A DNA stretch of 64,000 nt from an uncultured Streptomycetaceae bacterium (GTDB lineage: Bacteria > Pseudomonadota > Gammaproteobacteria > Burkholderiales > SG8-41). The notes under the pieces are model-generated. The model saw nothing but the letters and a program-made list of their open reading frames with translations. It was not told the origin of the DNA and searched no databases. Position 1 is the first letter of the stretch; the number at the start of each line of letters is the position of its first letter. The stretch is taken from assembly GCA_964521405.1 (NCBI GenBank), contig CAZFRR010000176.1:16285-80284 (forward strand). Direction: 5' to 3'. Below, piece after piece: positions 14,746 through 64,000 of the stretch. Made by a program: the position numbers and the translations under genes.

Positions 14746-14766
14746 CACGAATAACCCTACGCAATG

Positions 14767-15505: not shown

Positions 15506-15545
15506 CGCGATCCAGGCAATCCCGTATATTGAAGCGTAATTCTGT

Positions 15546-25672: not shown

Positions 25673-26347
25673 ATGGCTATCACTGACTGGCCGCTCGATG
25701 ACCGCCCGCGCGAGAAGCTGATCGCGAAGGGCGCTGAAGCGCTGTCCGACGCGGAACTGGTGTCTATTTTTTTTCGCACCGGCGTCAAGGGCAGGAGCGC
25801 CGTGGATCTCGCTCGCGAAGCGCTCGTCCGCTTCGGTTCGCTCTCCGGGCTGTTCGCGGCGGACTCGGGAGCGCTAACCGCCGTTTCAGGGCTGGGGACG
25901 GCAAAATACGCGCAACTGCAGGCGGTGCTGGAGATGGCGCGCCGCGCGCTGCGCGAGAAGCTCGAGGTGAGCTCGGCGCTCGGTTCTCCGCAGGCGGTTC
26001 GCGACTTTCTGCGATTGAAGCTGCAGGACCGCCCGCACGAAGTTTTCGTTGCCGTCTTTCTCAATGCCCAGAACCGGGTGCTGGCGGTGGAGGAGCTGTT
26101 CCGCGGGACGCTGACCCAGACCAGCGTCTACCCGCGCGAGGTGGTGAAACGCGCGCTCGCCCACAACGCGGCCGCACTGATCTTCGCTCACAACCACCCC
26201 TCGGGTATCGCGGAGCCGAGCCGTTCCGACGAGGCGCTCACCCAGGCGCTCAAGCAGGCGTTATCGCTGGTGGACGTCAAGGTGCTCGACCATTTCGTGA
26301 TTGGGGCGGGGGCGGCGATGTCGTTTGCCGAGCGCGGACTGCTCTAG
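25673..26347 (+). CDS. radC: RadC-family JAB/MPN domain protein
   Basis: [18 protein letters not shown] and [15 protein letters not shown] (JAMM motif). Confidence 0.9.
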
Positions 26348-26483
26348 GCAACAAGCACATCTGGCGCATTGCCGCTGGCATAACGCAGGTGTTGTATTTG
26401 GCTTGATTGGACTAAGATTGGAACTGCAACGCCGATGGTGGTGTATATCCGGCTACATCAGACTGGATCAAGGAGGGTCTATC

Positions 26484-26936
26484 ATGCACTACAAGCACAT
26501 CATGTTGCCCGTTGACGGATCAGAGTTGTCGCGTAAGGCGGAAAAGGAGTGCGTCGCCTTCGCCAAGTCCACTGGCGCGAAAGTGACCGCGATCCACGTG
26601 ATATCGCACTTTTACTTGCACTTTAAGCCATATGAAATACCCAAGAACGTGCCCGCCAAGATCGAAACAGAGCACGAGGAGGAAACCAGGGAAGCCGCAC
26701 AGAAGATAACCTCCGCGCTCGTGTCGCGCTTCAAAGCGGAGGGCGTTGACTGCGATGGTCTGGTCGTCGTCGGCGACCATCCTTACGAGGAGATCATCAG
26801 CCACGCCGAAAAGCGCAACTGCGATCTGATCATGATGGCTTCGCATGGCCGCAGGGGCCTCGATGCCGTGCTGCTCGGCAGCGAAACGGTGAAGGTGCTC
26901 ACGCATACCAAGATTCCGGTGCTGGTTGTGAGGTAG
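26484..26936 (+). CDS. universal stress protein (UspA family)
   Basis: HIMLPVDGSELS...MMASHGRRGLDAVLLGSETVKVLTHTKIPVLVV. RBS aaggaggg. Noticeably lower GC than the neighbours. Confidence 0.85.
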   Translation: MHYKHIMLPVDGSELSRKAEKECVAFAKSTGAKVTAIHVISHFYLHFKPYEIPKNVPAKIETEHEEETREAAQKITSALVSRFKAEGVDCDGLVVVGDHPYEEIISHAEKRNCDLIMMASHGRRGLDAVLLGSETVKVLTHTKIPVLVVR

Positions 26937-27095
26937 GCCGGGAATCGTGAGCCTGCTTCAGGGGCGCTGCGACATCGTTCGTCGAAAGCGGGTTTCTTAT
27001 CACTCGTCGCGCCCTGCGGAGCCGCCGGACTAGGGCTTGAGGCGTCGGCGAAAACCCTGTAGAATCCGCGCCTTTCCTGAATTCCGGAGCTGTCC

Positions 27096-27332
27096 ATGTC
27101 ACGCGTATGCCAGGTCACCGGCAAGAAGCCGATGCTGGGAAACAATGTGTCCCACGCCAACAACAAGACGCGGCGGCGCTTTCTGCCGAACCTGCACTAC
27201 CGCCGCCTCTGGGTCGAGAGCGAGAATCGCTGGGTCAGCTTGCGCCTGTCCCAGGCCGGGCTGCGCACCATCGACCGCAAGGGAATCGACGTCGTGCTGG
27301 CCGAGATGCGGGCCCGCGGCGAGAACGTTTAG
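27096..27332 (+). CDS. rpmB: 50S ribosomal protein L28
   Basis: [33 protein letters not shown]. Confidence 0.95.
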
Positions 27333-27359
27333 GGAAAACCTGAGACAGGGGGTTACGCC

Positions 27360-27515
27360 ATGCGCGAAAAAATCAAGCTCGAGTCGAGCGCCGGAACCGG
27401 CCACTTCTACACCACGACCAAGAACAAGCGCACCAAGCCCGACAAGATGGAATTGATGAAATTCGACCCGGTGGCGCGCAAGCACGTCATCTACAAAGAG
27501 ACGAAGATCAAATAA
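27360..27515 (+). CDS. rpmG: 50S ribosomal protein L33
   Basis: Not in the ORF track (51 aa). My translation: [51 protein letters not shown]. Confidence 0.9.
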
Positions 27516-27585
27516 TCAAGCGGCAGCGCAGGCCGTTGGAGCGGACGCAAGCGCCGCTCAACGGCGAAGAGACTTTCGAAAGCTA

Positions 27586-27614
27586 AAAAGCCCGCCGTCA
27601 GGCGGGCTTTTTTA
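27586..27614 (+). terminator. intrinsic terminator after rpmG
   Basis: aaaaaGCCCGCC-gtca-GGCGGGCtttttt. Confidence 0.85.
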
Positions 27615-27619
27615 TTCAA

Positions 27620-27656
27620 CTCGAAACTCGAAACTTGGAACCTGGAACCTGGAACC
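27620..27656. repeat. tandem heptamers (CTCGAAA x2, CTTGGAA, CCTGGAA x2)
   Basis: Single array between the rpmG terminator and the convergent desaturase stop. Confidence 0.75.
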
Positions 27657-27660
27657 GCGG

Positions 27661-28824
27661 TTACGCGTAACAGCGTAACCGGCGCGAGAACTCCTGCAGC
27701 GGGATGATGCCGCTGGCTTCCGCGCGCGCGCACCAGTCTTCGAGCTGGCGCACGAGCTGTTCCTTGGAGACGTTCGAGCGCTGCCAGAGCGAGGCCAGAT
27801 CCTGGCGCATGCTGCAAATGGTGGCGAGCACCTTGCTCTTGTCGAGCGCCTTGTCGACCCTGGCGCGCTCGCTGGCCGGCAGCGCGTCGGCGCCGAAGTG
27901 CAACGTGCGCCTCACTGCCGCCCAGTCGACGCTCACCGCGCGCGACCTGAGATTCTGGATCTCGTCGGCGCAGGTCTGGCGCAGCGAATGCGCGTACTTG
28001 GCGATCACCTCGTAACGATGGGTGATCACGGCCTGCACGGTGGCGAGGTCGCACTGCGTCTTGGCGGGATCGAGCCTCACTTCGGGCGCGACTTTCTTGA
28101 CCTGGGCCAGCCCCAGCGTTTCCAGAACGCGGATATAGAGCCAGCCGAGGTCAAACTCGAACCAGCGGTTGGAAAAGCGCGCCGAGCTCGGGTAGGCGTG
28201 GTGATTGTTGTGCAGTTCTTCACCGCCGACCACGATGCCCCACGGCACGACGTTGGTGCTCGCATCCTCCGGCTGGAAGGTGCGGTAGCCCCAGTAGTGC
28301 CCGATCCCGTTGATCACGCCCGCGGCAAAGAACGGTATCCACGCCATCTGTATGGCCCAGATGCTGATGCCGACGAAGCCGAACAGGGTGAAGTTGATGA
28401 CTAACATGGTGCCGATGCCGATCCGGTCGTGGATCGAGTAGACGTTATGCTCGAGCCAGTCATCCGGCGTGCCGCGGCCGTATTTGTCCTTCGTTTCCTG
28501 GTTGCGCGCTTCTCTGCGATAGAGCTCGGCGCCTTCCCACAATACCTTGTTGATGCCTTCGATCTGCGGGCTGTGCGGATCTTCCGCGGTCTCGCACCGG
28601 GCGTGGTGCTTGCGGTGGATCGCGGTCCAGTTCTTCGTAACCATGCCGGTGGTGAGCCACAACCAGAAACGGAAGAAGTGACTGACAACCGGATGGAGAT
28701 CAAGCGCGCGGTGCGCCTGGCAGCGATGTAGAAAGATGGTGACGGCGGCAATGGTGATGTGGGTGACGACGAGCGCGTACGCCACGTAACCCCACCACGG
28801 TAGATCCCAGACCCCTGTAAGCAA
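27661..28824 (-). CDS. membrane acyl-CoA (delta-9 type) fatty acid desaturase
   Basis: Three His boxes: HRCQAHRA, HRKHHARCE and HNNHHAYP. TM helices at the N-terminus. Confidence 0.85.
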   Translation of the reverse strand: MLTGVWDLPWWGYVAYALVVTHITIAAVTIFLHRCQAHRALDLHPVVSHFFRFWLWLTTGMVTKNWTAIHRKHHARCETAEDPHSPQIEGINKVLWEGAELYRREARNQETKDKYGRGTPDDWLEHNVYSIHDRIGIGTMLVINFTLFGFVGISIWAIQMAWIPFFAAGVINGIGHYWGYRTFQPEDASTNVVPWGIVVGGEELHNNHHAYPSSARFSNRWFEFDLGWLYIRVLETLGLAQVKKVAPEVRLDPAKTQCDLATVQAVITHRYEVIAKYAHSLRQTCADEIQNLRSRAVSVDWAAVRRTLHFGADALPASERARVDKALDKSKVLATICSMRQDLASLWQRSNVSKEQLVRQLEDWCARAEASGIIPLQEFSRRLRCYA

Positions 28825-34285: not shown

Positions 34286-35335
34286 TCAGACGATCATCAC
34301 CTGCGGGCCGTTCCTGCGGCGCCGCACGATTTTGCCGATGCGCCAGGCGGTCTCGCCGGCCGCTTTCAGCAGTTTTATCGACCTGGCTGCGTCGGCTTCC
34401 CGGACCACCACTACCATGCCGATGCCGCAATTGAAGACCCGGTAGAGTTCCGCGTCCGTAACGTTGCCCTCATCCTTGAGCCAGCGAAACAGCGACGGCA
34501 TCTTCCAGGCTGCGCGCTCGATGCGCGCCGCCAGCCGGTCGGACAGGATGCGCGGCACGTTGTCCACGAGGCCCCCGCCGGTGATGTGGGCGAGGCCCTT
34601 GATGGCGACCGCGCGGGAGAGCTTCAGCACCGGCTTCACGTAGATGCGCGTCGGCTCCAGGATCGCGTCGGCGAGCGTCCCGCCATGGAACTTCCTCGCC
34701 AGGTCCACGTTCCTGACTGCGAGGATCTTGCGGATCAGCGAGTAGCCGTTCGAATGCGCGCCACTGGAGGCAAGGCCCAGCACGGCATCGCCCTCGCGGA
34801 TGCTCGAGCCATCGATGATGCGGCTTTTCTCGACGATGCCGACAGCGAAACCGGCGAGATCGTATTCGCCGCTCGGGTACATGCCGGGCATTTCGGCGGT
34901 CTCGCCGCCTAGCAGCGCGCAGCTGGCCTGCTCGCAACCGCGGGCGATGCCCTTGACGACCTCGGTGGCGGTCGCGACGTCGAGCTTGCCGCACGCGTAA
35001 TAGTCGAGAAAGAACAGCGGTTCGGCGCCGAGCGTCAGGATATCGTTCACGCTCATCGCCACCAGGTCGATGCCGATGGTGGCGTGGCGGCCGAGTTCGA
35101 ATGCGAGCTTCAGCTTGGTGCCCACGCCATCGGTGCCGGACACCAGCACCGGCTCGCGGTATTTCCCCGCCGCGATCGCGTAGAGCGCCCCGAAGCCGCC
35201 GATGCCGGCGAGCACGCCCTTCGTCAGCGTTTTTTTCGCGAACGGCTTGATGTTCTCGACCAGCCGGTCGCCGGCGTCGATGTCCACACCGGCGTCCCGG
35301 TAGGTCAGCGGTCGAGGGGCGGCGGGCTTTTTCAA
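34286..35335 (-). CDS. purM: phosphoribosylformylglycinamidine cyclo-ligase (AIR synthetase)
   Basis: [21 protein letters not shown] and [11 protein letters not shown]. Confidence 0.95.
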
Positions 35336-51090: not shown

Positions 51091-51156
51091 CGCGCTTGCC
51101 TTTAAGCGTTCCTGGTCACGAGCAACGAGTAACGAGAAACGAGCAACGAGTCACGC
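51036..51156. repeat. inverted heptamer arrays (CGTTKYT x4 / ACGAGNA x5) enclosing a start codon
   Basis: Left arm 51036-51066 lies inside the 5' end of the dehydrogenase ORF. Right arm 51116-51154 overlaps the stop of the AhpD-like gene. The ATG at 51090 sits in the spacer. Confidence 0.85.
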
Positions 51157-51681
51157 CTTATCAGGCTGAATGTCGAGCGCCCTCAGCAATCGCGCTTGCA
51201 TGTTGTAGGCGCCGGTCAACACCGTCAGTTCCAGTATTTCGCGCTCGCTGTAGTGCTGGCGCATCGCGTCGAATACGGCGTCCGCAACGGCGACGTCCTG
51301 CGTCATGGCATCGACGTATGCCAGCAGCGCGCTCTCCTTGTCGCCGTAGACGCCGGACTTGCGCCAGTCGCGCAGGGCTTCGACCTCGCGCGGCGCGATG
51401 CCGGCCGGGCCCGCGTACTGCGCTTCGTGGACTTTCCACACGTAGTCGCAGCCGGTCAAGGCGGCGACCCGCATGATGACGAGCTCCCGCGTCCGGTCGC
51501 CGAGGCCGGTCTGGAAACGCACCGCGTTGTTGTAATCGAACCACGCCGAGGCGAGGGTGGGCGTGTGGAGGAGCGCCTTGTAGAAAACATGCAGCTGGCC
51601 CCCGCGCGCACCGCGGATTTTCTTTGCGATCGCGGCGATCTCGGGCGTGGCGTTTTCGTCGATGAGGGAGATGCGGGCCAT
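51151..51681 (-). CDS. carboxymuconolactone decarboxylase / AhpD-like family protein
   Basis: Size and helix-rich CMD-like sequence, with RELVIMRVAALTGCDYVWKVH (CxxW/H-type region). Confidence 0.7.
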   Translation of the reverse strand: MARISLIDENATPEIAAIAKKIRGARGGQLHVFYKALLHTPTLASAWFDYNNAVRFQTGLGDRTRELVIMRVAALTGCDYVWKVHEAQYAGPAGIAPREVEALRDWRKSGVYGDKESALLAYVDAMTQDVAVADAVFDAMRQHYSEREILELTVLTGAYNMQARLLRALDIQPDKA

Positions 51682-51804: not shown

Positions 51805-53208
<1,404 letters not shown>

Positions 53209-55312: not shown

Positions 55313-56656
55313 ATGACCGCCGCGAAAACGCTTGCCGAATTCGCCGTCAATCTGAAATACGAAGCCATCCCGCCGGAAGTCATCGAGCGCGCCAAGGACT
55401 GCATCATCGACACGGTCGGCGCCTGCGCCTTCGGCTCCCAGATGCCGTGGACGCAAATCGTCATCGAGCACGGCAAGCGCAACAGCGCGCCCGGTGAATG
55501 CAGCGTGTTCGGCACGCCCGTCAAGCTGCGCGCGCCGTTTGCCTGCCTCGCCAACGGCGCATCGGCGCACGCCTTCGAGCTCGATGCCCTGTGCGAGCCG
55601 AGCGTCGGCATCCATCCCGGCGCCGCGTTGTGCGTGCCGGGACTCGCCCCCTCGCAGGGCCGCAAGGGCAACGGGCGCGCGCTGCTCTCCGCCGTCGTCG
55701 CCGGCTACGAGGTGCTGTATCGCATCGGCGACGCGGCGAACCAGTCGATCGAGAAGGTCGGTTTCCATTCGCCGGGGGTGATCGGCGCGTTCGGCACCGC
55801 GGTGGTGATCGGCCGGCTGTTCGAGATCAGCGCGGAGAAGATGGCGCATGCGCTCGGCATCGCAGGCTCGCTCGGCTCCGGGCTGATGGAGTTTTCGAGG
55901 ACGGGCGGTATGGTGAAGCGCCTGCATCTCGGCCGCTCGGCGGAAAGCGGTTTCATGGCGGCGGTGCTGGCGCGAGACGGCTACACCGGTCCCGCGGGCG
56001 TATTCGAGGGCAAGTACGGCTTCCTCAACACGTTCTGCCGCAACGCGGAGCCGGCGCGCCTGACGCAGGAGCTCGGCACGACGTGGCACGTGATGAAGAC
56101 CAAGATCAAGCGCTATTCCTGCCACGCGACCTCACAGGTCCCGGTAACGCTCGCGCTCGACCTCAAGGCGCAGCACCAGCTCGCCGGTGACGACGTCGCG
56201 GGCATCACCATTGCCGCCAACGAGAAAACGGTGAGCCATCACGCCATCAACGAGCCGCAGGACATGACGATGGCGCAGTACAGCACGCCGTTCAACGTCG
56301 CGCTCGCGCTCTACCTGGACCCGATGGACCCGCGGTCGTTTTCCGAGAAGAGCCTTGCCGACCCGAAGATCCGCGCGCTGGCGAAGGGCGCCAAGGTCGA
56401 GCTCTACCCGGGCGCATCGAGCCCTGTGGCGCAGGATTGCCGGGTCACTTTCAAGTTGAAGAACGGCAAGGAAGTGACCGCGCAGGGCAACAATTTCAAG
56501 GGCACGCCGACGATGCCGCTCTCGCGCGACGAGCTGCGCGAGAAATTCCTCAAGCTCACCGCGCACAAGGACCGCGCGAAGGCGGACCGGCTGTTCTCGC
56601 AGCTTGCGGACGCGGAGAAGGTGGCGGACTTCAGCACCCTCGATTTCGCGCTCTAA
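55313..56656 (+). CDS. MmgE/PrpD-family protein (copy A)
   Basis: LAEFAVNLKYEAIPPEVIERAKDCIIDTVG.., HAFELD and KRYSCHA are PrpD-fold blocks. Confidence 0.85.
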   Translation: MTAAKTLAEFAVNLKYEAIPPEVIERAKDCIIDTVGACAFGSQMPWTQIVIEHGKRNSAPGECSVFGTPVKLRAPFACLANGASAHAFELDALCEPSVGIHPGAALCVPGLAPSQGRKGNGRALLSAVVAGYEVLYRIGDAANQSIEKVGFHSPGVIGAFGTAVVIGRLFEISAEKMAHALGIAGSLGSGLMEFSRTGGMVKRLHLGRSAESGFMAAVLARDGYTGPAGVFEGKYGFLNTFCRNAEPARLTQELGTTWHVMKTKIKRYSCHATSQVPVTLALDLKAQHQLAGDDVAGITIAANEKTVSHHAINEPQDMTMAQYSTPFNVALALYLDPMDPRSFSEKSLADPKIRALAKGAKVELYPGASSPVAQDCRVTFKLKNGKEVTAQGNNFKGTPTMPLSRDELREKFLKLTAHKDRAKADRLFSQLADAEKVADFSTLDFAL

Positions 56657-56689: not shown

Positions 56690-57295
56690 ATGGCAAACAA
56701 GGAAACGATAGGCGGCGTCAGCGTTTATCTCCCGACGGGAGAATTAGCGACGGGCGCAGCGCACCTCGCGCCACGACTGAAGACGCTACGTGGCGCCCGC
56801 GTCGGCATACTCGACAACTGCAAAGAATTTGCCGACATCGTGCTGCGCGGCGTAGCCGAGGTCCTCGAGCGCGAATACGGCGCGCAGGTGAAATTCTGGC
56901 GCAAATCCTACCTGGGGATTCCTTCGCCTTTCGCGCAAGTGATGGCAAAGGAGTGCGACGCCGTCATCAACGGCGTCGGCCACTGAGGGTCCTCGACACC
57001 CTGGACCGCGCGTGACGCGGTCAACCTCGAGAACCTCGGAACCCCGACTGTAACTGTCATCAGCACCGCCTTCGCCGCGCTCGGGCAGGTGACCGGCGAG
57101 GGTGCGGGACACGCGAGCCTGCCCATCGTCGTCGTGCCGCACCCGGTCGGCGATCGTGACGAAAACCTCATCCGGCAGAGGGGCGCGGACATCGCGCGAG
57201 AGTGCGTGCGCGTGCTCACGACACCGGTCGAGGAGCTGTCACGCGAGTTCAAGGACAAGCGGCATCCGCTTCCTCGCGCCGTCATGCCCCGCTGA
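56690..57295 (+). CDS. candidate selenoprotein, UxxC-family variant (U-G-S-S), 201 codons with TGA at codon 99 (copy A)
   Basis: Track ORFs 56690-56986 and 57089-57295 are in the same frame and are separated only by the TGA at 56984-56986. Both halves align with copy B: LDN.KE.ADI upstream, U-G-S-x-T...D.V..E..G.P...AF...PHPV downstream. Confidence 0.6.
57004..57022 (+). promoter_or_regulatory. candidate bacterial SECIS hairpin (copy A)
   Basis: GACCGCG-cguga-CGCGGUC, a perfect 7-bp stem starting 17 nt after the TGA, with G and U in the apical loop. Confidence 0.45.
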
Positions 57296-57305
57296 ACGAG
57301 CGCCG

Positions 57306-58358
57306 ATGAAGCCTGAAATGACCCCGATTGCGGAGACCGACGAGTCCTACGACCGCATCAACGATGCCTTCTACGAGCGCGGCTGGACCGACGGCCTGCC
57401 TATTGTGCCGCCGACCGAGGCGCGGGTGCGGGCGATGCTGGCCGGCATGCCGGGGCGCGACGCGGACGACCTGGTGAGCGTGGTGCCGCCCAAGATGGGT
57501 CACGCGACGATGCGCCAGATCGCGATCAACGCCGTGATGGCGGGCTGCCGTCCGGAATACCTGCCGGTAGTGGTCGCTGCGCTGCAGGCGGTTTCCGAGC
57601 CCGCCTACGGGCTTTCCCACCGGCAGACGACGACGCACGCGGGCGCGCCGCTCATCATCGTCAACGGCCCGATCGCGAAGCGCCTGAAGATCAACGGCGG
57701 GCGCGGGTTATTCGGGCCGGGCTGGCGGGCCAACGCGACCATCGGCCGGGCGCTGCGGCTGGTCCTCGTCAACGTCGGCGGCGCGGGGCCGGACGTGGAC
57801 GCGTCGCAAACCGGCCATCCCGGCAAGTACACCTATTGCATCGCCGAGTTCGAGGATGCCAACCCCTGGGAGCCGCTGCACGTCGAGCGCGGCTTCCGGC
57901 GCGAGCAGAGCGTCGTCACCGTGGTGAACACGGAAGCGCCGCATAGCATGACGGAAAACGTGCAGACTGACCCGGTCGAAATCATGCGCACGTTCGCGTC
58001 CTCAATGGCGACGCTGGGCGTGAATAATCTCTATTCGCAGGGCCACCCGGTGCTGGTGCTGGGCCTCGAGCATGTGCACCATCTCTCGGCAGCGGGCTGG
58101 AGCAAGATGGACGTGAAGCGCGCGCTGTTCGAGATGGCCCGGCAGCCCTGGGGGCTCATGAAGAACCGCGGCAAGTCGAAGGGGCCGCGCTTCCCGGAAT
58201 TCGTCGACCAGAACGACGACAACTCCATGGTCCCGATCCTGTGGGAAGCGAAGGACCTCATATTGATCGTGGGCGGCGGCGCCGGCGGCAAGTCGATGTT
58301 CCTGCCGACGGCCGGCGGGCAGAGCCTGAGCGTGTCGAAGGCAATCGAAGAAAGATGA
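57306..58358 (+). CDS. conserved protein of unknown function, partner of the TGA gene (copy A, 350 aa)
   Basis: Paralog of 61884-62903. Shared blocks: W(T/S)DG.P.V.PTE.RVR.MLAG, MAGC(R/K)PEYLPV, IVNGP, FGPG(W/F)RAN..IGRA.RL.L.N.GG. The stop overlaps the next start (ATGA). Confidence 0.8.
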   Translation: MKPEMTPIAETDESYDRINDAFYERGWTDGLPIVPPTEARVRAMLAGMPGRDADDLVSVVPPKMGHATMRQIAINAVMAGCRPEYLPVVVAALQAVSEPAYGLSHRQTTTHAGAPLIIVNGPIAKRLKINGGRGLFGPGWRANATIGRALRLVLVNVGGAGPDVDASQTGHPGKYTYCIAEFEDANPWEPLHVERGFRREQSVVTVVNTEAPHSMTENVQTDPVEIMRTFASSMATLGVNNLYSQGHPVLVLGLEHVHHLSAAGWSKMDVKRALFEMARQPWGLMKNRGKSKGPRFPEFVDQNDDNSMVPILWEAKDLILIVGGGAGGKSMFLPTAGGQSLSVSKAIEER

Positions 58359-59383
58359 CGAACCTGGAGAATGGAACGACGAGGTGGAAGCGTGTGGGGC
58401 GCGTCGCATGCGTGCGGCTGGCGATCGCCGTGGCGCTTTGCGCGGTCGTGCCGGCGCCCGCCTTCGCGCAGTCCGGCTGGAAACCGGAAAGTACCGTGGA
58501 GCTGATCGTGCCGTCGGGGCCCGGCGGCGGCACCGATCACACGGCGCGGGTCGTGCAGCAGGTCCTGCAACAGAAGCAACTGGTGAGCGTGCCGGTGGCG
58601 GTGGTCAACAAGACCGGCGGCGGCGGAACGCTGGCGCTGTCCTACCTCAACCAGTTCCGGGGCAATGCGCACTACCTGCACCTGGCATCGGCGGTGCTGC
58701 TGACGAGCCACATCGTCGGCCGCACGCCCATCAACTACACGGATCTCACGCCGGTTGCGCTGCTGCAGAGCGAATACGTGGTGCTGGCGGTCAAAGCCGA
58801 TTCATCGCTCAAGAACGCCCATGACCTGGTGGCGCGCCTGAAGCAGGATCCCGCCGCGCTGAGTATTTCCGTGGGCACCAGCTTCGGCGGCGCCAACCAT
58901 TCCGCGATCGCCGCCGTGGCGCGTAGCGCAGGCATCGATTCCCGCAAGCTCAAGACGGTGGTATTCAAGTCATCGTCGGAAGCGGCGCTCGCCGCGCTCG
59001 GCGGGCACGTGGACGTTGTGTCAGCGAGCGCGTCCCAGGTGCTCACCCACGTCCGGTCGGGCGCTCTGCGTCTCATCGGCGTGACGTCACCGGCGAGGCT
59101 GAAAGGGGACCTCGCCACGGTGCCGACGCTGAAGGAGCAGGGCATCAACGTCGAGGTCAACAACTTCCGCATGCTGGTCGGACCGAAGGACCTCACCACG
59201 CCGCAGCTCGCCTATTGGGACCAGGTTCTCGCGAAGATGGTGCAGGCCGAGGAATGGAAGAAGGACCTCGAACGGGATGTGGTCGAGGACACCTACCTGA
59301 ACAGCCGCGACATCCGCAAGTATCTCGACTCCGAATACGCCGAGCTGAAGAGCCTGCTGATCGAGATGGGGCTCGCCAGGTAG
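58355..59383 (+). CDS. Bug/TctC-family substrate-binding protein
   Basis: Signal peptide ...VVPAPAFAQ, then ELIVPSGPGGGTDHTAR..VVNKTGGGGTLA. Confidence 0.85.
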   Translation: MTNLENGTTRWKRVGRVACVRLAIAVALCAVVPAPAFAQSGWKPESTVELIVPSGPGGGTDHTARVVQQVLQQKQLVSVPVAVVNKTGGGGTLALSYLNQFRGNAHYLHLASAVLLTSHIVGRTPINYTDLTPVALLQSEYVVLAVKADSSLKNAHDLVARLKQDPAALSISVGTSFGGANHSAIAAVARSAGIDSRKLKTVVFKSSSEAALAALGGHVDVVSASASQVLTHVRSGALRLIGVTSPARLKGDLATVPTLKEQGINVEVNNFRMLVGPKDLTTPQLAYWDQVLAKMVQAEEWKKDLERDVVEDTYLNSRDIRKYLDSEYAELKSLLIEMGLAR

Positions 59384-59425
59384 CGTAGCGGCGCGGATTG
59401 CCCGCGCCCCGATAAATCATCCGGG

Positions 59426-60823
59426 ATGGACATGAAAACCAACGATGCCAGGGAGCCGCTCGCCGCTCATGTCGCGGCGTTCGTGACGAAAACGCGCCAT
59501 GCCGGCCTGCCTGCCGAGACGGCGCGCGTCGTGAAGAAGCACATGCTCGATACGCTTGCGTGCGGCCTCGCCGGCGTGCCCGCGGAGGGCAGCGACATCG
59601 TGCGGCGCTACATCGAGCGCCTGGGATGCAGTGGCAGCGCGACCGTGTTCGGCACGGCGCAGCAGGCGGCCCCGCGGTTCGCGGCCCTGGCCAACGCCAC
59701 CGCGATGCACGCCGACGACTTCGACGACACTTACCATCCGACGCGATTTCACCCCACGGCCCCCGTGCTGTCCGCCGTGTGTGCCGTGGGCGAGGAAAAC
59801 GGCGCTTCCGGTGCCGAGGTGCTGGCGGCAGTCGCGGTCGGCACCGAGGTCTCCCTGAAACTCAGTCACACCATCGACCAGCAGCATTACCTGCGCGGCT
59901 TCCACATGACCAGCACCTGCGGTGTGTTCGGCGCCACAGCGGGCGTATGCAACCTGCTCCGGCTGTCCACTGATGCCACAACACGCGCCATCGGTATCGC
60001 CGGCAGCCACTCCGCCGGAGTGCGCGAGAACTTCGGCACGATGGTGAAGCCCTTGCACTCGGGGCGCGCCGCTGAGAACGCCGTGTTTGCGGCCTCACTC
60101 GCGGCAATGGATTTCACGGCGTCGCCGACGATCCTCGAGGGCGACCGCGGCTATTTCATGACGGGCGCCGGGGGCTACAATGCCGACGAGCTGGTCGGCA
60201 AACTCGGCAACCCGTGGAACTACGTTGCCAGGGGCGTGGCGATCAAGCCGTATCCCTGCGGCAACCTCCAGCAGCCGGCCATGGACAAGTTGCGGGATCT
60301 CGTCGTGGAACACGACATCAAGCCGGGGCAGGTCGAGCGCCTCGCGGTGAAGAGCCACCGCCTGATGCCGCTCAACCTCACTTACCACCGGCCGGTGACG
60401 GGGCTGGAAGGCAAGTTCAGCATGGAATTCAGCCTCGCCTCGATCCTCGTGCTACGGCGCGCCGGCCTCGCCGAGTACAGCGATGCGGTCGTGAACCGCC
60501 CCGACATCCAGGATGCGATAGGCAGGATCGACTACACCGTGTTCAGCGACGAGGAAGCCGAGGCGAAGGGCTACACGCTGCTCACCACCTTCCTCGACAT
60601 CAAGTTGAAGGACGGGCGGACCCTTTCCGCGCGGGTGGACGCGGCCAAGGGCAGTGCCACGCTTCCCATGAGCGAGGAAGACGTCGCGCGCAAGTTCCGC
60701 GAGTGCGCGGAGTTCGCAGGCTTGCCCGGCGGGAGGGCCGGGAAGATCATCGATCTCGTTCTCAAGCTCGAGGATGTGCGCGACATACGCGACCTGACGC
60801 GGCTCATCGGGACGGCACACTGA
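59426..60823 (+). CDS. MmgE/PrpD-family protein (copy B)
   Basis: LAAHVAAFVTKTRHAGLPAETARVVKKHMLDTLACG.., HADDFDD and IKPYPCG are PrpD-fold blocks. Confidence 0.85.
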   Translation: MDMKTNDAREPLAAHVAAFVTKTRHAGLPAETARVVKKHMLDTLACGLAGVPAEGSDIVRRYIERLGCSGSATVFGTAQQAAPRFAALANATAMHADDFDDTYHPTRFHPTAPVLSAVCAVGEENGASGAEVLAAVAVGTEVSLKLSHTIDQQHYLRGFHMTSTCGVFGATAGVCNLLRLSTDATTRAIGIAGSHSAGVRENFGTMVKPLHSGRAAENAVFAASLAAMDFTASPTILEGDRGYFMTGAGGYNADELVGKLGNPWNYVARGVAIKPYPCGNLQQPAMDKLRDLVVEHDIKPGQVERLAVKSHRLMPLNLTYHRPVTGLEGKFSMEFSLASILVLRRAGLAEYSDAVVNRPDIQDAIGRIDYTVFSDEEAEAKGYTLLTTFLDIKLKDGRTLSARVDAAKGSATLPMSEEDVARKFRECAEFAGLPGGRAGKIIDLVLKLEDVRDIRDLTRLIGTAH

Positions 60824-60881
60824 GCCTGCAATGCGGGGGCCGGATCGACAGCGTGCCCAGGCGCCAGCAGAGGAAAGAAAA

Positions 60882-61868
60882 ATGAACGCGAGCTTCAAAT
60901 TCAAGTCAGCCGCCCGCATCGTTTTCATGGCGTTTGCCTGCTGCGGCGTGTCCGGCGTGCAGGCGCAGGCGTATCCGTCCAAAATCGTGCGACTGGTTCT
61001 GCCGTTCCCGCCGGGTGGCGGCACGGACGTGGTTGGTCGCCTGCTGGCGCAGAAGCTCGGCCAGGCGCTGGGCCAGCAGGTTATCGTGGACAATCGCGCG
61101 GGCGCCGGCGGGCGCATTGGCGCCGAGCTGGTCGCGAGATCAGCGCCGGACGGATACACGCTGCTCCTCGCCGGCAGCAGCGTCATGGCAACGGCGCCGG
61201 CGCTGTATGCGAAGCTGCCGTTCGACATGCCGAAGGACTTCGCCCCGATATCGCTGGTGGCATACACTGCATACGTGCTGGTCGTGCATCCGTCCGTACC
61301 CGCGAGAATGGTGAAGGAACTGATCGCGCTCGCGAAATCGCGGCCCGGCCGGCTCACGTTCGCGTCGTCGGGCGCCGGCGGAGCGGCGCATCTTTCGGGG
61401 GAGCTGTTCAGCGCGATGGCCGGCGTGAAAATGATCCACGTGCCGTACAAGGGGAGCTCTCCGGGAACGCTGTCGGTGATCGCCGGCGAGACCGACCTGA
61501 TGTTCAGCAATACCGTAGCGGCACTGCCTTCGGTGAAGAGCGGCCGGCTGCGGACGCTAGGCGTCACCGCTCTACGGCGCTCCACGATCATGCCCGATGT
61601 GCCGACGGTGGCCGAATCGGGGCTTCCGGGGTTCGAGGTGCAGCAGAACTACGGTTTGCTGGCGCCGGCGGGCACGCCGCGGGAAATCGTGATCCGGCTG
61701 AACCAGGAGGTTGGTAAGGTGATGCGGACGGAGGACGCGAGGAGCAGGCTCCTCGTGGACGGCTCGGAGGCCAAGTTCAGCACTCCCGAGGAACTGGAGA
61801 AGATGATCACGGCCGAGATCGCAAAGTGGTCGAAGGTCATCAAGCAGGCGGGCATCAAGGAAGAGTGA
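60882..61868 (+). CDS. Bug/TctC-family substrate-binding protein
   Basis: Signal peptide MNASFKFKSAARIVFMAFACCGVSGVQA, then VRLVLPFPPGGGTDVVGRL..VVDNRAGAGGRIG. Confidence 0.85.
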   Translation: MNASFKFKSAARIVFMAFACCGVSGVQAQAYPSKIVRLVLPFPPGGGTDVVGRLLAQKLGQALGQQVIVDNRAGAGGRIGAELVARSAPDGYTLLLAGSSVMATAPALYAKLPFDMPKDFAPISLVAYTAYVLVVHPSVPARMVKELIALAKSRPGRLTFASSGAGGAAHLSGELFSAMAGVKMIHVPYKGSSPGTLSVIAGETDLMFSNTVAALPSVKSGRLRTLGVTALRRSTIMPDVPTVAESGLPGFEVQQNYGLLAPAGTPREIVIRLNQEVGKVMRTEDARSRLLVDGSEAKFSTPEELEKMITAEIAKWSKVIKQAGIKEE

Positions 61869-61883: not shown

Positions 61884-62903
61884 TTGAGCGCTGTGGTTGA
61901 TCCATTCGAGTTTTTCCTGGAAAAGGAGTGGTCGGACGGGTATCCGGTCGTCACGCCGACCGAAGAGCGCGTCCGCTGGATGCTGGCCGGGACGCGGCGT
62001 GACCCGGACGAGCTGGTGGGCCTGATACCGCCGGCGATGGAGCCGGCGACGGTTCGCACCGTCGCCATCCACGCGCTGATGGCAGGCTGCAAGCCGGAAT
62101 ACCTGCCGGTCGCGCTGGGCGCGGTGAAGCACATCATTCGCGAGGAATTCAATATGGGCGGCGTGCAGTGCACAATGCACGGCGTTGCGCCGCTGATGAT
62201 CGTGAACGGCCCCTATGCGCAGACCATCGGGCTGCACGGCGGCGCCGGCTGCTTCGGTCCGGGGTTTCGCGCCAATACCAGCATCGGCCGCGCGATCCGG
62301 CTGATGCTGCTCAATCTCGGCGGCGGCATATCGGGACGCGCCTCGGCGACCGTGTTCAGCTCGCCGTTCCGCTATACCGCCTGCATTACCGAAAACATGG
62401 CATCGAGCCCATGGGAGAGCCTCGCGGTGTCGCGAGGCTATTCGCCGCACGACAACGTGATCACGTTCGCGATGGCGGAGAACCCGCGCCTGCACTTCGA
62501 CGACGTCAGCACCGAGCCCGAGCGGCTGCTGCGGGGGATCGGTGACGCCATGACGGCGCCCGGCTCGTGGAACATGTGGTTCGTTTCGGACATGGTCGTC
62601 GCGATGAGCCCGCAACACGCGAAGTTGTGCGCGGACGCCGGCATGAGCCGCGCCGACGTGGTCGGGCGCCTGAGCCAGCTCGCCGTGCGCCGGCAATCCG
62701 GGGTGAAGTACGGCGGCAACTGGCGGCCCGAGCGCGCACGAGCGATGGGCATCGACCCCGACGACGAGAATGCCCTCATCAAGGCCGTCAAGGACCCGGG
62801 GCGGCTGCATCTCATCGTCGCGGGCGGCAACGGCCCGATCACCGCCGTGTGCCACGGCTGGAACGAGACCAGCCGTGCAGTGCACGGCACCTACGAGGTA
62901 TGA
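61884..62903 (+). CDS. conserved protein of unknown function, partner of the TGA gene (copy B, 339 aa)
   Basis: Paralog of 57306-58358 (see the shared blocks there). TTG start at 61884 or GTG at 61893. Confidence 0.8.
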   Translation: MSAVVDPFEFFLEKEWSDGYPVVTPTEERVRWMLAGTRRDPDELVGLIPPAMEPATVRTVAIHALMAGCKPEYLPVALGAVKHIIREEFNMGGVQCTMHGVAPLMIVNGPYAQTIGLHGGAGCFGPGFRANTSIGRAIRLMLLNLGGGISGRASATVFSSPFRYTACITENMASSPWESLAVSRGYSPHDNVITFAMAENPRLHFDDVSTEPERLLRGIGDAMTAPGSWNMWFVSDMVVAMSPQHAKLCADAGMSRADVVGRLSQLAVRRQSGVKYGGNWRPERARAMGIDPDDENALIKAVKDPGRLHLIVAGGNGPITAVCHGWNETSRAVHGTYEV

Positions 62904-62984
62904 GGGCGGAGGGATGAGGGATGCGCGATGCGGGTTTCTCTCATCTCGTATCCCGGATCTCGTATCCCGTATCACGATTCACGC
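62902..62984. repeat. inverted heptamer arrays (GAGGGAT-type x5 / GTATCCC-type x6)
   Basis: gagggcg gagggat gagggat gcgcgat gcgggtt pairs with tcatctc gtatccc ggatctc gtatccc gtatcac gattcac. The element starts on the upstream TGA. Confidence 0.8.
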
Positions 62985-62997
62985 TTTTTATTAGGAA

Positions 62998-63534
62998 ATG
63001 AACATGACGAATGACCTGGGCTTCATCGACCCCACCGCGGGCGGCAACAAGGCGAGGATCCCGCTGGCGCCGCGGCCGATGGACCTCGCCGGCAAGGTGG
63101 TGGGCCTCCTCGATAACACCAAGGAGCAGGCCGATATTATTTTCGAAACCGTCGCGGACGTCCTGCGCAGCCGCTACGGAGTGGCTAAAGTGATCATCCG
63201 GCGCAAGGAGGCCTTCTCCCGGCCCGCGACCGAAGCGCTGCTGAACGAGATGGCGAAGGAGGTGCAGGTGGCCGCCGCCGCCCTCGGCGGGTGAGGGTCC
63301 TGCACGTTGTGCAGTGTGCACGACACGGTGGAGTTCGAGAAACGCGGCATACCCGCCACGATGTTTCTCACGCAGGCGTTCAAGAACGCGGCGGTCTATC
63401 AATTCCGCGGCAAGGGCATGGACGGGCACCCGTTCATCGAGCTGCCGCATCCGGTGAGCAACCTCACGCCCGGCGAGATGCGCGCGCTCACGCTGAAATA
63501 CGTCGAGCAGATGGTCAGGCAGCTGACTGCGTGA
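62998..63534 (+). CDS. candidate selenoprotein with U-G-S-C motif, 178 codons with TGA at codon 99 (copy B)
   Basis: Track ORFs 62998-63294 and 63307-63534 share a frame. The junction reads ...AAALGG-TGA-GSCTLCSVHDTVEFEKRGIPATMFLTQAF...LPHPVSN. U-x-x-C resembles a CxxC redox motif. Confidence 0.65.
63300..63321 (+). promoter_or_regulatory. candidate SECIS region (copy B): two alternative hairpins
   Basis: CUGCAC-guu-GUGCAG (63300-63314) or GUGCA-gug-UGCAC (63309-63321). They lie 6-15 nt after the TGA, and the apical loops contain G and U. Confidence 0.4.
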
Positions 63535-63560
63535 GGGGCGAGGGATGAGGGATTAGTGAC
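63533..63560. repeat. tandem heptamers (GAGGGGC, GAGGGAT x2, TAGTGAC)
   Basis: Starts inside the TGA stop of the preceding gene. Confidence 0.7.
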
Positions 63561-63565: not shown

Positions 63566-64000
63566 ATGGGAAAGCCGACATCAGTCCGTGCAGTAGCAAA
63601 ACCGTCGAACCGGTTTTATTTAGTTTTGCACTCCACGGCGATCGTTGCTCTCGCCGCGCTTCCAATCCCGATGACGAGTCCGAGTGCGGTGGCGCAAAAC
63701 TACCCTTCGCGGCCGCTGCGGGTGGTGGTGCCGTTCGCGCCGGGCGGTGCGGTGGATCTCGTCGCGCGGACCGTCGCGCCGAAGCTCTCCGAGGCGCTGG
63801 GCCAGCCGGTGGTGGTGGACAACCGCGGCGGCGCCGGGGGCACGATAGGCACCGATATCGTCGCGAAGGCGCGGCCGGACGGTCACACGCTGCTCGTAGC
63901 CAGCATGGGCGTTGCGGTCAACGCGGTGCTCTATCCGAAGCTGCCGTACGACACGCTGAAGGACCTCGCGCCGGTCACCTCGCTGGGCGAGCAGCCCAAC
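63566..64000 (+). CDS. Bug/TctC-family substrate-binding protein (5' part; runs off the window end)
   Basis: Not in the ORF track (no stop). My translation: MGKPTSVRAVAKPSNRFYLVLHSTAIVALAALPIPMTSPSAVAQNYPSRPLRVVVPFAPGGAVDLVARTVAPKLSEALGQPVVVDNRGGAGGTIG... Confidence 0.75.
   Translation, partial: MGKPTSVRAVAKPSNRFYLVLHSTAIVALAALPIPMTSPSAVAQNYPSRPLRVVVPFAPGGAVDLVARTVAPKLSEALGQPVVVDNRGGAGGTIGTDIVAKARPDGHTLLVASMGVAVNAVLYPKLPYDTLKDLAPVTSLGEQPN

What the first reader, a model, noticed from the sequence alone, without database searches (positions are those of the whole stretch)
62998..63534. Second TGA-interrupted gene with a U-G-S-C (UxxC) motif at the same codon position
This gene has 98 codons, then a TGA (63292-63294), then GSCTLCSVHDTVEFEKRGIPATMFLTQAF...ELPHPVSNLTPGEM... 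in the same frame for 79 more codons. The TGA is codon 99, exactly as in copy A, even though the flanking residues have diverged.

U-G-S-C looks like a thioredoxin-style CxxC redox centre with Sec in the attacking position, and a second Cys follows (C-T-L-C).

Two alternative small hairpins with G/U-containing loops lie 6-15 nt downstream of the TGA.
Basis: partly seen in the sequence, partly recalled or inferred. Interest (0 to 1): 0.8.

Follow-up and report, generated by a model that had tools for sequence, protein, structure and literature searches.

The report
Known UGSC-family selenoprotein gene
This is a genuine selenoprotein gene whose in-frame TGA encodes selenocysteine, but it belongs to the already catalogued "UGSC" family; that family's biochemical function is still unknown, and it always sits next to an uncharacterised partner gene.

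Summary
Window 62998-63534 is one reading frame interrupted by a single TGA at 63292-63294.

**Family.** With Cys in place of Sec, the product scores above the curated cut-offs of NCBIfam NF041046 "UGSC family (seleno)protein" and Pfam PF24696.

**TGA is read through.**
- The TGA is present in 82 of 82 orthologous genes (65-98% identical).
- The three codons after it (G-S-C) never change the amino acid but vary synonymously, so they are translated.
- More distant relatives have Cys at this position.

**SECIS.** An 8-bp hairpin with a GUG loop starts 11 nt after the UGA (63306-63324).
- It coincides with the only stretch of the gene that has no synonymous variation.
- All eight of its base pairs covary between paralog classes.

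**Fold and relatives.** A confident model of a Cys homolog is flavodoxin-like, not thioredoxin-like. The only recurrent distant relatives are GrdB/PrdB-type selenoprotein B, with which copy B shares the UxxCxxC motif.

**Partner gene.** An unannotated ~340-aa gene (61884-62903) lies within 6 kb in 66 of 67 loci and is fused to UGSC in some organisms.

**Verdict.** This is a correct call of an already known family. Its function is unknown, so interest is modest.

The parts
62998..63534 (+). UGSC-family selenoprotein gene, copy B. It is one ORF with an in-frame UGA. The likelier start is ATG 63004; the stop is TGA 63532-63534.
   Evidence: Translation. NF041046 scores 131.3 bits against a cut-off of 125, and PF24696 scores 160.5 bits. 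GC3 is 0.90 before and 0.89 after the TGA. The start argument rests.
63292..63294 (+). UGA selenocysteine codon. It is residue 99 counted from 62998, or 97 counted from 63004.
   Evidence: TGA is present in 82 of 82 orthologous genes. It aligns to Cys in full-length distant homologs. TGA is the ordinary stop for 31 of 51 genes in the window.
63292..63312 (+). U-G-S-C-T-L-C motif (UxxCxxC): Sec99, Cys102, Cys105.
   Evidence: Translation. The motif is invariant in 82 orthologs. GrdB has the same motif spacing (PMC13188914).
63306..63324 (+). SECIS candidate. It has an 8-bp stem (63306-63313 pairing with 63317-63324) and a GUG triloop (63314-63316), and lies 11 nt after the UGA.
   Evidence: The seven codons 63304-63324 show no synonymous variation in 80 distinct genes, whereas all 92 other conserved degenerate columns vary. 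All 8 pairs covary between paralog classes while the GUG loop is kept.
63445..63453 (+). Conserved P-H-P motif of the family.
   Evidence: Family alignment A2; coordinates.
61884..62903 (+). Partner gene B. It encodes an uncharacterised 339-aa protein with an invariant MAGC motif (Cys69) and a second nearly invariant Cys167.
   Evidence: The partner ends within 400 nt upstream of UGSC in 48 of 67 loci and lies within 6 kb in 66 of 67. It is fused to a UGSC domain in P0309, P0321, P0364 and P0389. It has no Pfam, NCBIfam or PDB relative and more than 5900 unnamed homologs.
56690..57295 (+). UGSC-family selenoprotein gene, copy A, with motif U-G-S-S. The UGA is at 56984-56986 and the SECIS candidate is at 57004-57022.
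   Evidence: PF24696 145 bits; NF041046 103 bits, below its cut-off. TGA is present in 79 of 79 A-type genes. The hairpin is shown.
57306..58358 (+). Partner gene A, a 350-aa paralog of 61884-62903.
   Evidence: A partner gene lies directly downstream of A-type UGSC in 39 of 40 loci. Paralogy is shown.
55313..56656 (+). MmgE/PrpD-family gene of the cluster. A second copy lies at 59426-60823.
   Evidence: Pfam. In relatives it lies directly upstream of the partner-UGSC pair.
63566..64000 (+). TctC/Bug-type solute-binding protein gene that runs off the window. Other copies lie at 58241-59383 and 60831-61868.
   Evidence: Translation, Pfam on the paralogs and synteny.

Best explanation
Window 62998 (more likely 63004) to 63534 is a single gene for a ~177-residue selenoprotein of the known UGSC family.

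**Supported by comparative sequence evidence (translation itself was not assayed):**
- The UGA at 63292-63294 is translated, not used as a stop.
- It is followed 11 nt later by an 8-bp hairpin with a GUG triloop (63306-63324). This hairpin is under nucleotide-level selection and covaries between paralogs, as expected of a bacterial SECIS that recruits SelB and Sec-tRNA.

**Inferred from a confident model of a Cys homolog:**
- The protein is a flavodoxin-like alpha/beta domain.
- Sec sits at the end of strand 3 and the start of helix 3, inside a U-x-x-C-x-x-C motif.

**Inferred from recurrent weak profile matches and the shared motif:**
- It is a free-standing distant relative of the Sec-bearing C-terminal module of selenoprotein B of the glycine, sarcosine, betaine and D-proline reductases.

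**Inferred from near-obligate adjacency and fusion:**
- It works as a complex with the product of the neighbouring gene 61884-62903, an uncharacterised protein with two conserved cysteines.

**Proposed chemistry, by analogy and untested:**
- The selenolate acts as the nucleophile or redox centre on a substrate held by the partner.
- The cycle ends in a selenenylsulfide with Cys102 (or Cys105), which a thiol or electron donor re-reduces.
- The substrate is probably an organic carboxylate handled by the co-encoded TctC binding proteins, MmgE/PrpD and HpcH-type enzymes.
For: **Family membership.**
- NF041046 scores 131.3 bits (cut-off 125) and PF24696 scores 160.5 bits.
- The family is described in PMC2398784, PMC1976440, PMC9312934 and PMC13188914.

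**Read-through of the TGA.**
- TGA is present in 82 of 82 orthologs.
- Public gene calls split the gene into 96-105-aa pieces ending ...GG and 72/75-aa pieces starting just after the TGA.
- Codons G100, S101 and C102 use 4, 4 and 2 synonymous codons with no amino-acid change in 80 genes, although no start codon lies between them and the TGA.
- Cys occupies the site in 55 of 64 full-length distant homologs.
- TGA is the usual stop codon in the window.

**SECIS.**
- Zero synonymous variation is confined to 63304-63324. The invariant third positions run from the first to the last base of the stem.
- All 8 pairs change on both sides between five paralog classes, and the GUG loop is kept.

**Fold.**
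- The model has pLDDT 92.3 and pTM 0.86.
- Foldseek returns only flavodoxin-like and Rossmann-like hits.

**Relation to selenoprotein B.**
- Of 68 family members, 31 hit TIGR01917, 18 hit GrdF, 17 hit TIGR01918, 11 hit GrdH and 3 hit PrdB. No other family recurs more than twice.
- Copy B residues 77-176 match profile positions 328-420 of 431.
- GrdB carries a UxxCxxC motif.

**Partner gene.**
- Adjacency holds in 66 of 67 B-type and 39 of 40 A-type loci.
- Fusion proteins exist.
- The pairing is kept in Paracoccus, on an Acidovorax plasmid and in the archaeon Natrinema.
Against: - No selA, selB, selD or tRNA-Sec gene lies in the 64-kb window (the AIRS protein at 34289-35335 is PurM). The rest of the genome could not be examined.
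- The matches to GrdB-type models are far below family cut-offs (19 bits against 602). No residue-level alignment to a real GrdB or PrdB was seen, so the claim that Sec aligns to Sec rests on offset arithmetic and on motif identity.
- No GrdE/PrdA-type pyruvoyl proprotein, GrdA or GrdC is encoded nearby.
- The structure is of a 39%-identical Cys homolog, not of the window protein.
- The partner's fold is unknown, because the fusion model reached only pLDDT 53.
- The second Cys is absent in copy A and in the U-G-T-S class, so a U-x-x-C selenenylsulfide cannot be the mechanism for the whole family.
- No experiment on any member of the family was found in the literature searched.
Confidence: 0.85

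Rival explanations
1. The protein is a thioredoxin-fold thiol/selenol:disulfide oxidoreductase. On this view it is a generic redox protein whose U-x-x-C works like the C-x-x-C of thioredoxin, as the first reader suggested and as the early literature assumed ('likely Trx-like fold').
For: - The motif is U-x-x-C, with Sec at the start of a helix that follows a strand.
- PMC2398784 lists the family among Trx-like-fold selenoproteins.
- Cys forms carry CGSC.
Against: - The confident model is a five-stranded parallel alpha/beta domain, and none of the top 50 PDB matches has a thioredoxin fold.
- No thioredoxin, peroxiredoxin or glutaredoxin family appears among the 25 most frequent weak Pfam or NCBIfam hits of 68 members.
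- The resolving Cys is missing in copy A and in the U-G-T-S class.
- A dedicated partner gene is nearly always adjacent.
Confidence: 0.1
2. These are two separate products. On this view 62998-63294 is a stand-alone 98-aa protein ending at a real stop, and 63307-63534 is translated independently from its TTG or GTG start. Alternatively, the gene is a pseudogene broken by a nonsense mutation.
For: - Gene callers split it this way in thousands of public records.
- A purine-rich GGGUGAGGG stretch lies upstream of the TTG at 63307.
- No Sec machinery is visible in the window.
Against: - The codons between the TGA and the TTG (G-S-C-T) are protein-conserved with synonymous variation in 80 genes, so they are translated.
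- There is never a frame shift or indel at the junction in 82 + 79 genes.
- Cys-form homologs and fusions are single polypeptides.
- The purine-rich stretch consists of Gly codons whose third positions vary.
- A nonsense mutation would not be kept at 65% protein identity across phyla.
Confidence: 0.02
3. The UGA is recoded to a standard amino acid (Cys, Trp or Gly), through near-cognate read-through or an altered genetic code, and not to selenocysteine.
For: - Cys is the residue found at this site in the non-UGA homologs.
- The presence of Sec machinery could not be verified for this genome.
Against: - TGA ends 31 of 51 genes in the window, including this one, so the code is standard.
- A conserved, covarying hairpin at the canonical 11-nt spacing is what SelB-dependent decoding needs and what simple read-through does not need.
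- The family is an established selenoprotein family found in Sec-utilising genomes (PMC5029168).
Confidence: 0.03

Closest known systems
UGSC family (seleno)protein (NCBIfam NF041046, Pfam PF24696; the 'UGSC-containing protein' of Zhang & Gladyshev)
   Same: - Copy B matches the whole model above the curated cut-offs.
- The U-G-S-C motif sits at the family's Sec/Cys column.
- The length is about 175 aa.
- Both Sec and Cys forms exist.
- A fusion or neighbour domain is present. The GOS paper's 'Unknown_1' is probably the partner family seen here, though this could not be verified because that figure is held only as an image.
   Different: Copy B does not differ in any substantive way. Copy A (U-G-S-S) falls below the NCBIfam equivalog cut-off (103 bits against 125) but passes Pfam.
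Selenoprotein B of the glycine, sarcosine, betaine and D-proline reductases (GrdB, GrdF, GrdH, PrdB; TIGR01917, TIGR01918, TIGR04483)
   Same: - Weak profile matches to these models recur in 31 of 68 family members, and they are the only recurrent matches apart from the UGSC model itself.
- The match covers the C-terminal, Sec-bearing part of the GrdB model.
- The motif is UxxCxxC, as in GrdB.
- Both work with a second, separately encoded protein.
   Different: - Scores are far below the family cut-offs.
- UGSC is only about 175 aa and lacks the roughly 250-300-residue N-terminal part of GrdB.
- No GrdE/PrdA pyruvoyl proprotein, GrdA, GrdC or PrdC lies nearby.
- The hosts include Burkholderiales, Paracoccus and haloarchaea (lineages that are, from general knowledge, mostly aerobic or facultative), not Stickland-fermenting clostridia.
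- The gene context points to organic-acid catabolism rather than amino-acid fermentation.
Thioredoxin-fold UxxC/CxxU selenoproteins (Trx-like, Prx-like, DsbA-like, SelW-like)
   Same: They share a Sec in a U-x-x-C motif at the N-terminus of a helix, and Cys-containing homologs are common.
   Different: The predicted fold is flavodoxin-like with an all-parallel sheet, and there is no sequence relation to Trx-fold families.
Bacterial SECIS elements, of which E. coli fdhF and fdnG are the prototypes (from established knowledge)
   Same: It is a hairpin lying inside the coding sequence immediately 3' of the UGA. The 11-nt spacer in copy B matches the spacing required in E. coli. G and U are exposed in the apical loop.
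   Different: The loop is a GUG triloop on a perfect 8-bp stem, with no bulged U. The spacer is 13 nt in the U-G-T-S class and 17 nt in copy A. No Rfam family matches it.

Membership tests
UGSC family (seleno)protein (NF041046 / PF24696) | The whole-protein score is above the curated cut-off of the family model. | tested here: met
   Copy B scores 131.3 bits against 125 for NF041046 and 160.5 against 25 for PF24696. Copy A scores 103.4 (below the cut-off) and 145.4 (above the cut-off).
UGSC family (seleno)protein (NF041046 / PF24696) | Sec or Cys lies in the U/C-G-S-C motif at the family's conserved column. | tested here: met
   The window's N-terminal fragment ends one column before, and its C-terminal fragment starts one column after, the Cys column of GDCGSC in alignment A2. 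The motif is U-G-S-C-T-L-C.
Bacterial selenoprotein gene | The in-frame UGA is conserved among orthologs and replaced by Cys codons in other homologs. | tested here: met
   TGA is present in 82 of 82 genes. Cys is at the site in 55 of 64 full-length distant homologs.
Bacterial selenoprotein gene | A SECIS hairpin lies immediately downstream of the UGA and is under selection as RNA. | tested here: met
   Synonymous variation is zero only across 63304-63324. All 8 pairs covary between paralog classes. Binding to SelB was not tested.
Bacterial selenoprotein gene | The genome encodes selA, selB, selC (tRNA-Sec) and selD. | not testable with these tools
   None of these lies in the 64-kb window.
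Glycine/sarcosine/betaine/D-proline reductase selenoprotein B (TIGR01917/TIGR01918/TIGR04483) | The score is above the family cut-off over the full ~430-aa (GrdB) or ~240-aa (PrdB) model. | tested here: not met
   TIGR01917 scores 19.2 bits against a cut-off of 602.2, and only profile positions 328-420 are matched. UGSC is a distant relative of one module, not a member of the family.
Glycine/sarcosine/betaine/D-proline reductase selenoprotein B (TIGR01917/TIGR01918/TIGR04483) | A UxxCxxC (GrdB) or UxxC (PrdB) selenocysteine motif is present. | tested here: met
   Copy B carries U99-G-S-C102-T-L-C105. The motifs are as given in PMC13188914 and PMC2398784.
Glycine/sarcosine/betaine/D-proline reductase selenoprotein B (TIGR01917/TIGR01918/TIGR04483) | The gene is co-encoded with a pyruvoyl proprotein (GrdE/PrdA, PF09338) and with GrdA/GrdC or PrdC. 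| tested here: not met
   The neighbours are MmgE/PrpD, TctC, HpcH/HpaI and the unannotated partner. None hits PF09338.
Thioredoxin-fold oxidoreductases | The thioredoxin fold, a mixed sheet with beta-alpha-beta and beta-beta-alpha units. | tested here: not met
   The model of Cys homolog P0270 (pLDDT 92.3) has five parallel beta-alpha units. The top 50 Foldseek PDB hits are flavodoxin-like or Rossmann-like, and none has a Trx fold. The test was made on a homolog, not on the window protein itself.

The most novel reading that the evidence does not exclude
UGSC and its unannotated ~340-aa partner form a previously unrecognised two-component Sec/Cys-dependent enzyme. It would be evolutionarily related to the 'protein B' module of the Stickland reductases, but it is used by Proteobacteria, Nitrospinota and even haloarchaea.

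It would catalyse a reductive (or nucleophilic) C-N, C-O or C-S bond cleavage on an imported organic carboxylate. One of the partner's conserved cysteines (the invariant MAGC cysteine or Cys167) would serve either as a second catalytic thiol or as the precursor of a pyruvoyl group, as the processed Cys does in GrdE and PrdA.
Probability: 0.25. Interest if true: 0.65.

Novelty: already known. Interest (0 to 1): 0.3.

Why it matters
As a selenoprotein call, this result is a confirmation. The UGSC family has curated NCBIfam and Pfam models, and it ranked among the most abundant selenoprotein families in aquatic metagenomes (255 Sec forms against 21 Cys forms in the GOS data).

Its value is practical.
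- Gene callers still cut these genes into two 'hypothetical proteins' in thousands of records. Examples include a conjugative IncP plasmid of Acidovorax sp. T1 and Paracoccus versutus pTAV4.
- About twenty years after its discovery, the family still has no known function.

The side results make that function testable in cultured strains:
- the fold is flavodoxin-like, not thioredoxin-like;
- there is a recurrent distant link to GrdB/PrdB;
- a partner gene with no annotation is almost always adjacent;
- the SECIS is well defined.

Tried and rejected
1. **Full-length protein in the restricted tools.** I used the 79-aa C-terminal piece for the search and a Cys homolog (P0270) for the structure.
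2. **Structure of a natural UGSC-partner fusion.** P0321 with a 5-row alignment gave pLDDT 53. The partner domain was unusable, and Foldseek gave only weak flavodoxin-like hits for the UGSC part. This spent one of the two structure jobs, so the partner's fold stays unknown.
3. **PDB searches by sequence and by profile.** Neither UGSC nor the partner has a significant match.
4. **Rfam.** Nothing relevant at the gathering threshold or at E<=10.
5. **Single-sequence MFE folds around the UGA.** These were not significant on their own (z -0.9 and -1.5). The SECIS argument therefore rests on comparative data.
6. **Metagenome scan with the diverse alignment A2.** I used copy A instead.
7. **MAFFT on the 19-nt hairpins.** It misaligned them, so pairs were counted by position in a script.
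8. **Candidate SelD at 34289-35335.** Its sequence shows it is PurM.
9. **Candidate third in-frame TGA at 1407 (+).** It is an antisense-frame artefact inside the LysR gene.
10. **'Terminator-like' site at 63598-63617.** It lies inside the downstream TctC coding sequence.
11. **Lyase_1 gene at 51808-53205.** It is housekeeping purB, not part of the cluster.
12. **GOS 'Unknown_1' domain.** I could not verify that it is the partner family, because the figure is held only as an image.
Full report
**1. The observation**

Window 62998-63534 (+) translates to 98 codons, a TGA at 63292-63294, and then 79 more codons (GSCTLCSVHDTVEFEKRGIPATMFLTQAF...ELPHPVSNLTPGEM...) up to the stop at 63532-63534. 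Third-position G+C is 0.90 before the TGA and 0.89 after it, in the same frame.

Copy A (56690-57295) has the same layout, with its TGA at 56984-56986 followed by GSSTPW.

The two copies are 39% identical. In the pairwise alignment A is 3 residues ahead at the N-terminus and then has 3 residues of gaps. The TGAs are therefore homologous, but the shared number 'codon 99' is a coincidence.

The likelier start of copy B is ATG 63004. AGGA lies 8 nt upstream, and most database N-terminal fragments are 96-97 aa.

**2. It is a known family**

With Cys substituted for the stop, copy B matches both curated family models.
- NCBIfam NF041046 'UGSC family (seleno)protein': 131.3 bits, cut-off 125.
- Pfam PF24696 'UGSC family': 160.5 bits.

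Copy A passes Pfam (145 bits) but not the NCBIfam equivalog cut-off (103 bits).

The literature describes the 'UGSC-containing protein' as follows:
- It is a selenoprotein of unknown function (PMC1976440).
- It was among the most abundant selenoprotein families in the Global Ocean Sampling data, with 255 Sec forms and 21 Cys forms and the motif UxxC.
- It was said to have a 'likely Trx-like fold' and to be sometimes fused to a domain called Unknown_1 (PMC2398784).
- Reviews from 2022 and 2026 still list it as uncharacterised.

NCBI's pipeline already names Cys forms 'UGSC family (seleno)protein' on plasmids of Natrinema, Halalkalicoccus, Arthrobacter and Roseovarius.

**3. The UGA is translated**

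- All 82 B-type genes found in 80 public genome loci plus the window have TGA at this site, followed by GSCTLCSVHD. These loci are 65-98% identical and are labelled Burkholderiales/Betaproteobacteria, Nitrospinota and Chloroflexota, among others.
- All 79 A-type genes have it too (78 from metagenome loci plus window copy A).
- In the protein database, nearly all of the 120 best hits to copy B are N-terminal pieces that stop at ...GG just before the TGA, mostly 96-105 aa long. The best hits to the C-terminal half are 72- or 75-aa pieces beginning at the TTG or GTG just after it. This is what gene callers produce at a Sec codon.
- In a codon alignment of 80 distinct genes, the three codons right after the TGA (Gly, Ser, Cys) use 4, 4 and 2 synonymous codons and never change the amino acid. 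No start codon lies between the TGA and these codons, so they can only be read by ribosomes that pass the TGA. This rules out two independent products.
- More distant full-length homologs (155-245 aa) carry Cys in that column in 55 of 64 cases, mostly as CGSC. Others are CGAC, CGGC and CGTS.
- TGA is the normal stop for 31 of 51 genes in the window, so the genetic code is standard.

**4. The SECIS**

Single-sequence folding is not significant. The comparative signal, by contrast, is sharp.

*Synonymous-site evidence.* Seven consecutive codons, T-L-C-S-V-H-D (63304-63324, ACGTTGTGCAGTGTGCACGAC), show no synonymous variation in 80 genes. Each of the other 92 conserved degenerate columns varies, with normalised entropy averaging about 0.69 and never below 0.23.

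The invariant third positions run from 63306 to 63324. These are the first and last bases of an 8-bp hairpin, GUUGUGCA-GUG-UGCACGAC. The flanking synonymous sites 63303 and 63327 vary.

*Covariation evidence.* The same architecture recurs with different stems in the other paralog classes:

| Class or source | Hairpin |
|---|---|
| U-G-T-S class | CCAUCAGC-GUG-GCUGAUGG |
| L078 | GUCGUGGA-GUG-UCCGCGAC |
| Paracoccus versutus | GUCGUGGA-GUG-UCCAUGAC |
| L008 | GUCGGGCA-GUC-UGCUCGAC |
| Copy A | GACCGCG-CGUGA-CGCGGUC |

All eight pair positions show two-sided changes between classes. Within the A class, the variants seen in the core stem are C-to-U changes opposite G.

*Spacing.* The spacer after the UGA is 11 nt in copy B. 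From established knowledge, this is the distance the E. coli fdhF element requires. It is 13 nt in the U-G-T-S class and 17 nt in copy A.

Rfam has no matching family.

**5. Fold and distant relatives**

The window protein itself could not be submitted, because the tools refuse a stop codon or a substituted residue. I therefore modelled the full-length Cys form P0270, which is 39% identical to the window fragments in alignment A2, using a 68-row alignment.

The model has pLDDT 92.3 and pTM 0.86. It shows five parallel beta-alpha units, with the Cys that replaces Sec lying between strand 3 (residues 88-94) and helix 3 (97-112).

Foldseek against the PDB returns only generic flavodoxin-like and Rossmann-like domains: NQO1/2, azoreductases, lumazine synthase and flavodiiron proteins, with TM-scores of 0.35-0.46. 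No thioredoxin-fold protein is in the top 50. The 'Trx-like' label therefore holds for the motif but not for the fold.

Each of the 68 family members was scanned separately against NCBIfam. Only the selenoprotein B models of the Stickland reductases recur:

| Model | Members hitting (of 68) |
|---|---|
| TIGR01917 (GrdB) | 31 (best E 2.6e-5) |
| GrdF | 18 |
| TIGR01918 | 17 |
| GrdH | 11 |
| PrdB | 3 |

No other family, apart from the UGSC model itself, is hit more than twice.

For copy B, the match covers residues 77-176 against profile positions 328-420 of 431. That is the C-terminal part of the model. Copy B's U-G-S-C-T-L-C also has the UxxCxxC spacing reported for GrdB (PMC13188914).

The scores are far below the family cut-offs, and I saw no residue-level alignment. 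I therefore call UGSC a distant relative of that module and not a member of the family.

**6. The partner gene and context**

The gene upstream of copy B (61884-62903, 339 aa) and the gene downstream of copy A (57306-58358, 350 aa) are paralogs.
- They have no Pfam, NCBIfam or PDB relative.
- They have more than 5900 database homologs. None of the 120 best hits carries a name other than 'hypothetical protein', and none has a Pfam domain.
- A member of this family ends within 400 nt upstream of B-type UGSC in 48 of 67 loci with enough sequence, and lies within 6 kb in 66 of 67.
- It lies directly downstream of A-type UGSC in 39 of 40 loci.
- The same pairing is seen in Paracoccus versutus, on an Acidovorax IncP plasmid and in the archaeon Natrinema zhouii.
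- The two are fused into single 485-574-aa proteins in P0309, P0321, P0364 and P0389.
- The partner has an invariant ...A-x-M-A-G-C-x-P... motif (Cys69) and a nearly invariant Cys167.

Other frequent neighbours are MmgE/PrpD-family proteins, TctC/Bug solute-binding proteins and an HpcH/HpaI aldolase.

In close relatives, the first PrpD gene is followed directly by partner B and UGSC B. The window carries an extra module, UGSC A - partner A - TctC - PrpD - TctC, inserted between them.

**7. How it probably works**

*Supported by comparative sequence evidence:* there is one gene, its UGA is decoded, and an RNA hairpin under selection lies at SECIS spacing.

*Inferred:*
- SelB-dependent insertion of Sec.
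- A flavodoxin-like domain that presents the selenolate at a helix N-terminus.
- Action in a complex with the partner protein.

*By analogy with D-proline and glycine reductase* (PMC10298544), where Sec attacks a substrate carbon and a Cys thiolate then resolves the selenoether into a selenenylsulfide:
- I propose a nucleophilic or redox cycle that ends in a Sec99-Cys102 (or Cys105) selenenylsulfide.
- It would act on an organic carboxylate supplied by the co-encoded transport and catabolic genes.

This last step is untested. It cannot apply unchanged to copy A, which lacks the second Cys.

**8. What is missing**

- No selA, selB, selD or tRNA-Sec lies in the window. The AIRS-domain protein at 34289-35335 is PurM. 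The rest of the genome was out of reach.
- The partner's fold is unknown, because the fusion model reached only pLDDT 53.
- No other in-frame TGA gene was found in the window.

**9. Verdict**

The gene belongs to an already described and routinely annotated family, so its novelty is low.

Residual interest lies in four points: the family's unknown function, the unannotated and nearly obligate partner, the non-thioredoxin fold, and the distant link to Stickland selenoprotein B. All four can be tested in cultured strains.

Noticed in passing
window 57306-58358 and 61884-62903: This is a large, unannotated protein family of about 340 aa. It has more than 5900 homologs; none of the 120 best carries a name other than 'hypothetical protein', and none has a Pfam, NCBIfam or PDB relative. 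It is almost always adjacent to UGSC genes and is fused to them in some organisms. It has an invariant MAGC cysteine and a second conserved Cys.
   Followed up: partly
window 56690-57295: Copy A is U-G-S-S, so it lacks the resolving Cys of the UxxC motif. Its TGA is nevertheless conserved in 79 of 79 A-type genes, and it has its own hairpin (57004-57022, core CCGCG-CGUGA-CGCGG) 17 nt after the UGA. It scores below the NCBIfam UGSC equivalog cut-off.
   Followed up: partly
window 1688-1708, 10405-10425, 62902-62929, 63533-63553: Tandem GAGGGAT heptamers occur at four intergenic sites, giving 9 matches against 0.34 expected by chance. Two of the sites flank copy B directly after stop codons. This looks like a small REP-like intergenic repeat.
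   Followed up: partly
window 62902-62988: A long imperfect hairpin (-38.1 kcal/mol, z -2.6) lies between the partner gene and UGSC copy B. It is built from the GAGGGAT repeats and their near-complements, and it is followed by CGCUUUUUAUU just before the ribosome-binding site. It may be a terminator, an attenuator or an mRNA-stabilising element.
   Followed up: no
window 56690-61868 compared with L001, L004, L006, L012, L164: In close relatives the first MmgE/PrpD gene is followed directly by partner B and UGSC B. The window has an extra five-gene module (UGSC A, partner A, TctC, PrpD, TctC) inserted between them.
   Followed up: partly
L083:5001-5560 (Acidovorax sp. T1 plasmid p2-T1, NZ_CP021650.1) and L081:6001-6540 (Paracoccus versutus pTAV4, NZ_CP035287.1): Sec-type UGSC genes occur in cultured strains, each with the same GUG-loop hairpin and with the partner gene downstream. 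One is on a conjugative IncP plasmid, where it is annotated only as a 97-aa hypothetical protein. The other has no gene listed under the match in PLSDB's incomplete gene table for that record.
   Followed up: partly
window 13600-15600: This is a 2-kb island of lower G+C (54-59% against 64% overall) without the usual high-GC3 codon signal. It holds a methyltransferase-like ORF (13803-14612, -) and a small cupin-like ORF (14767-15057, -), and is probably acquired DNA.
   Followed up: no
window 26347-28824: ORF 27664-28824 (-) combines a fatty-acid desaturase domain with an ISL3 transposase fragment. The 1.3 kb upstream of it has no clean ORF. This looks like an insertion-sequence remnant disrupting a gene.
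   Followed up: no
window 51154-51681 (-): This CMD/AhpD-like protein weakly matches NCBIfam 'YciW-related (seleno)protein' (57 bits against a cut-off of 310). It appears to be a Cys-form relative of another family that contains selenoproteins.
   Followed up: no
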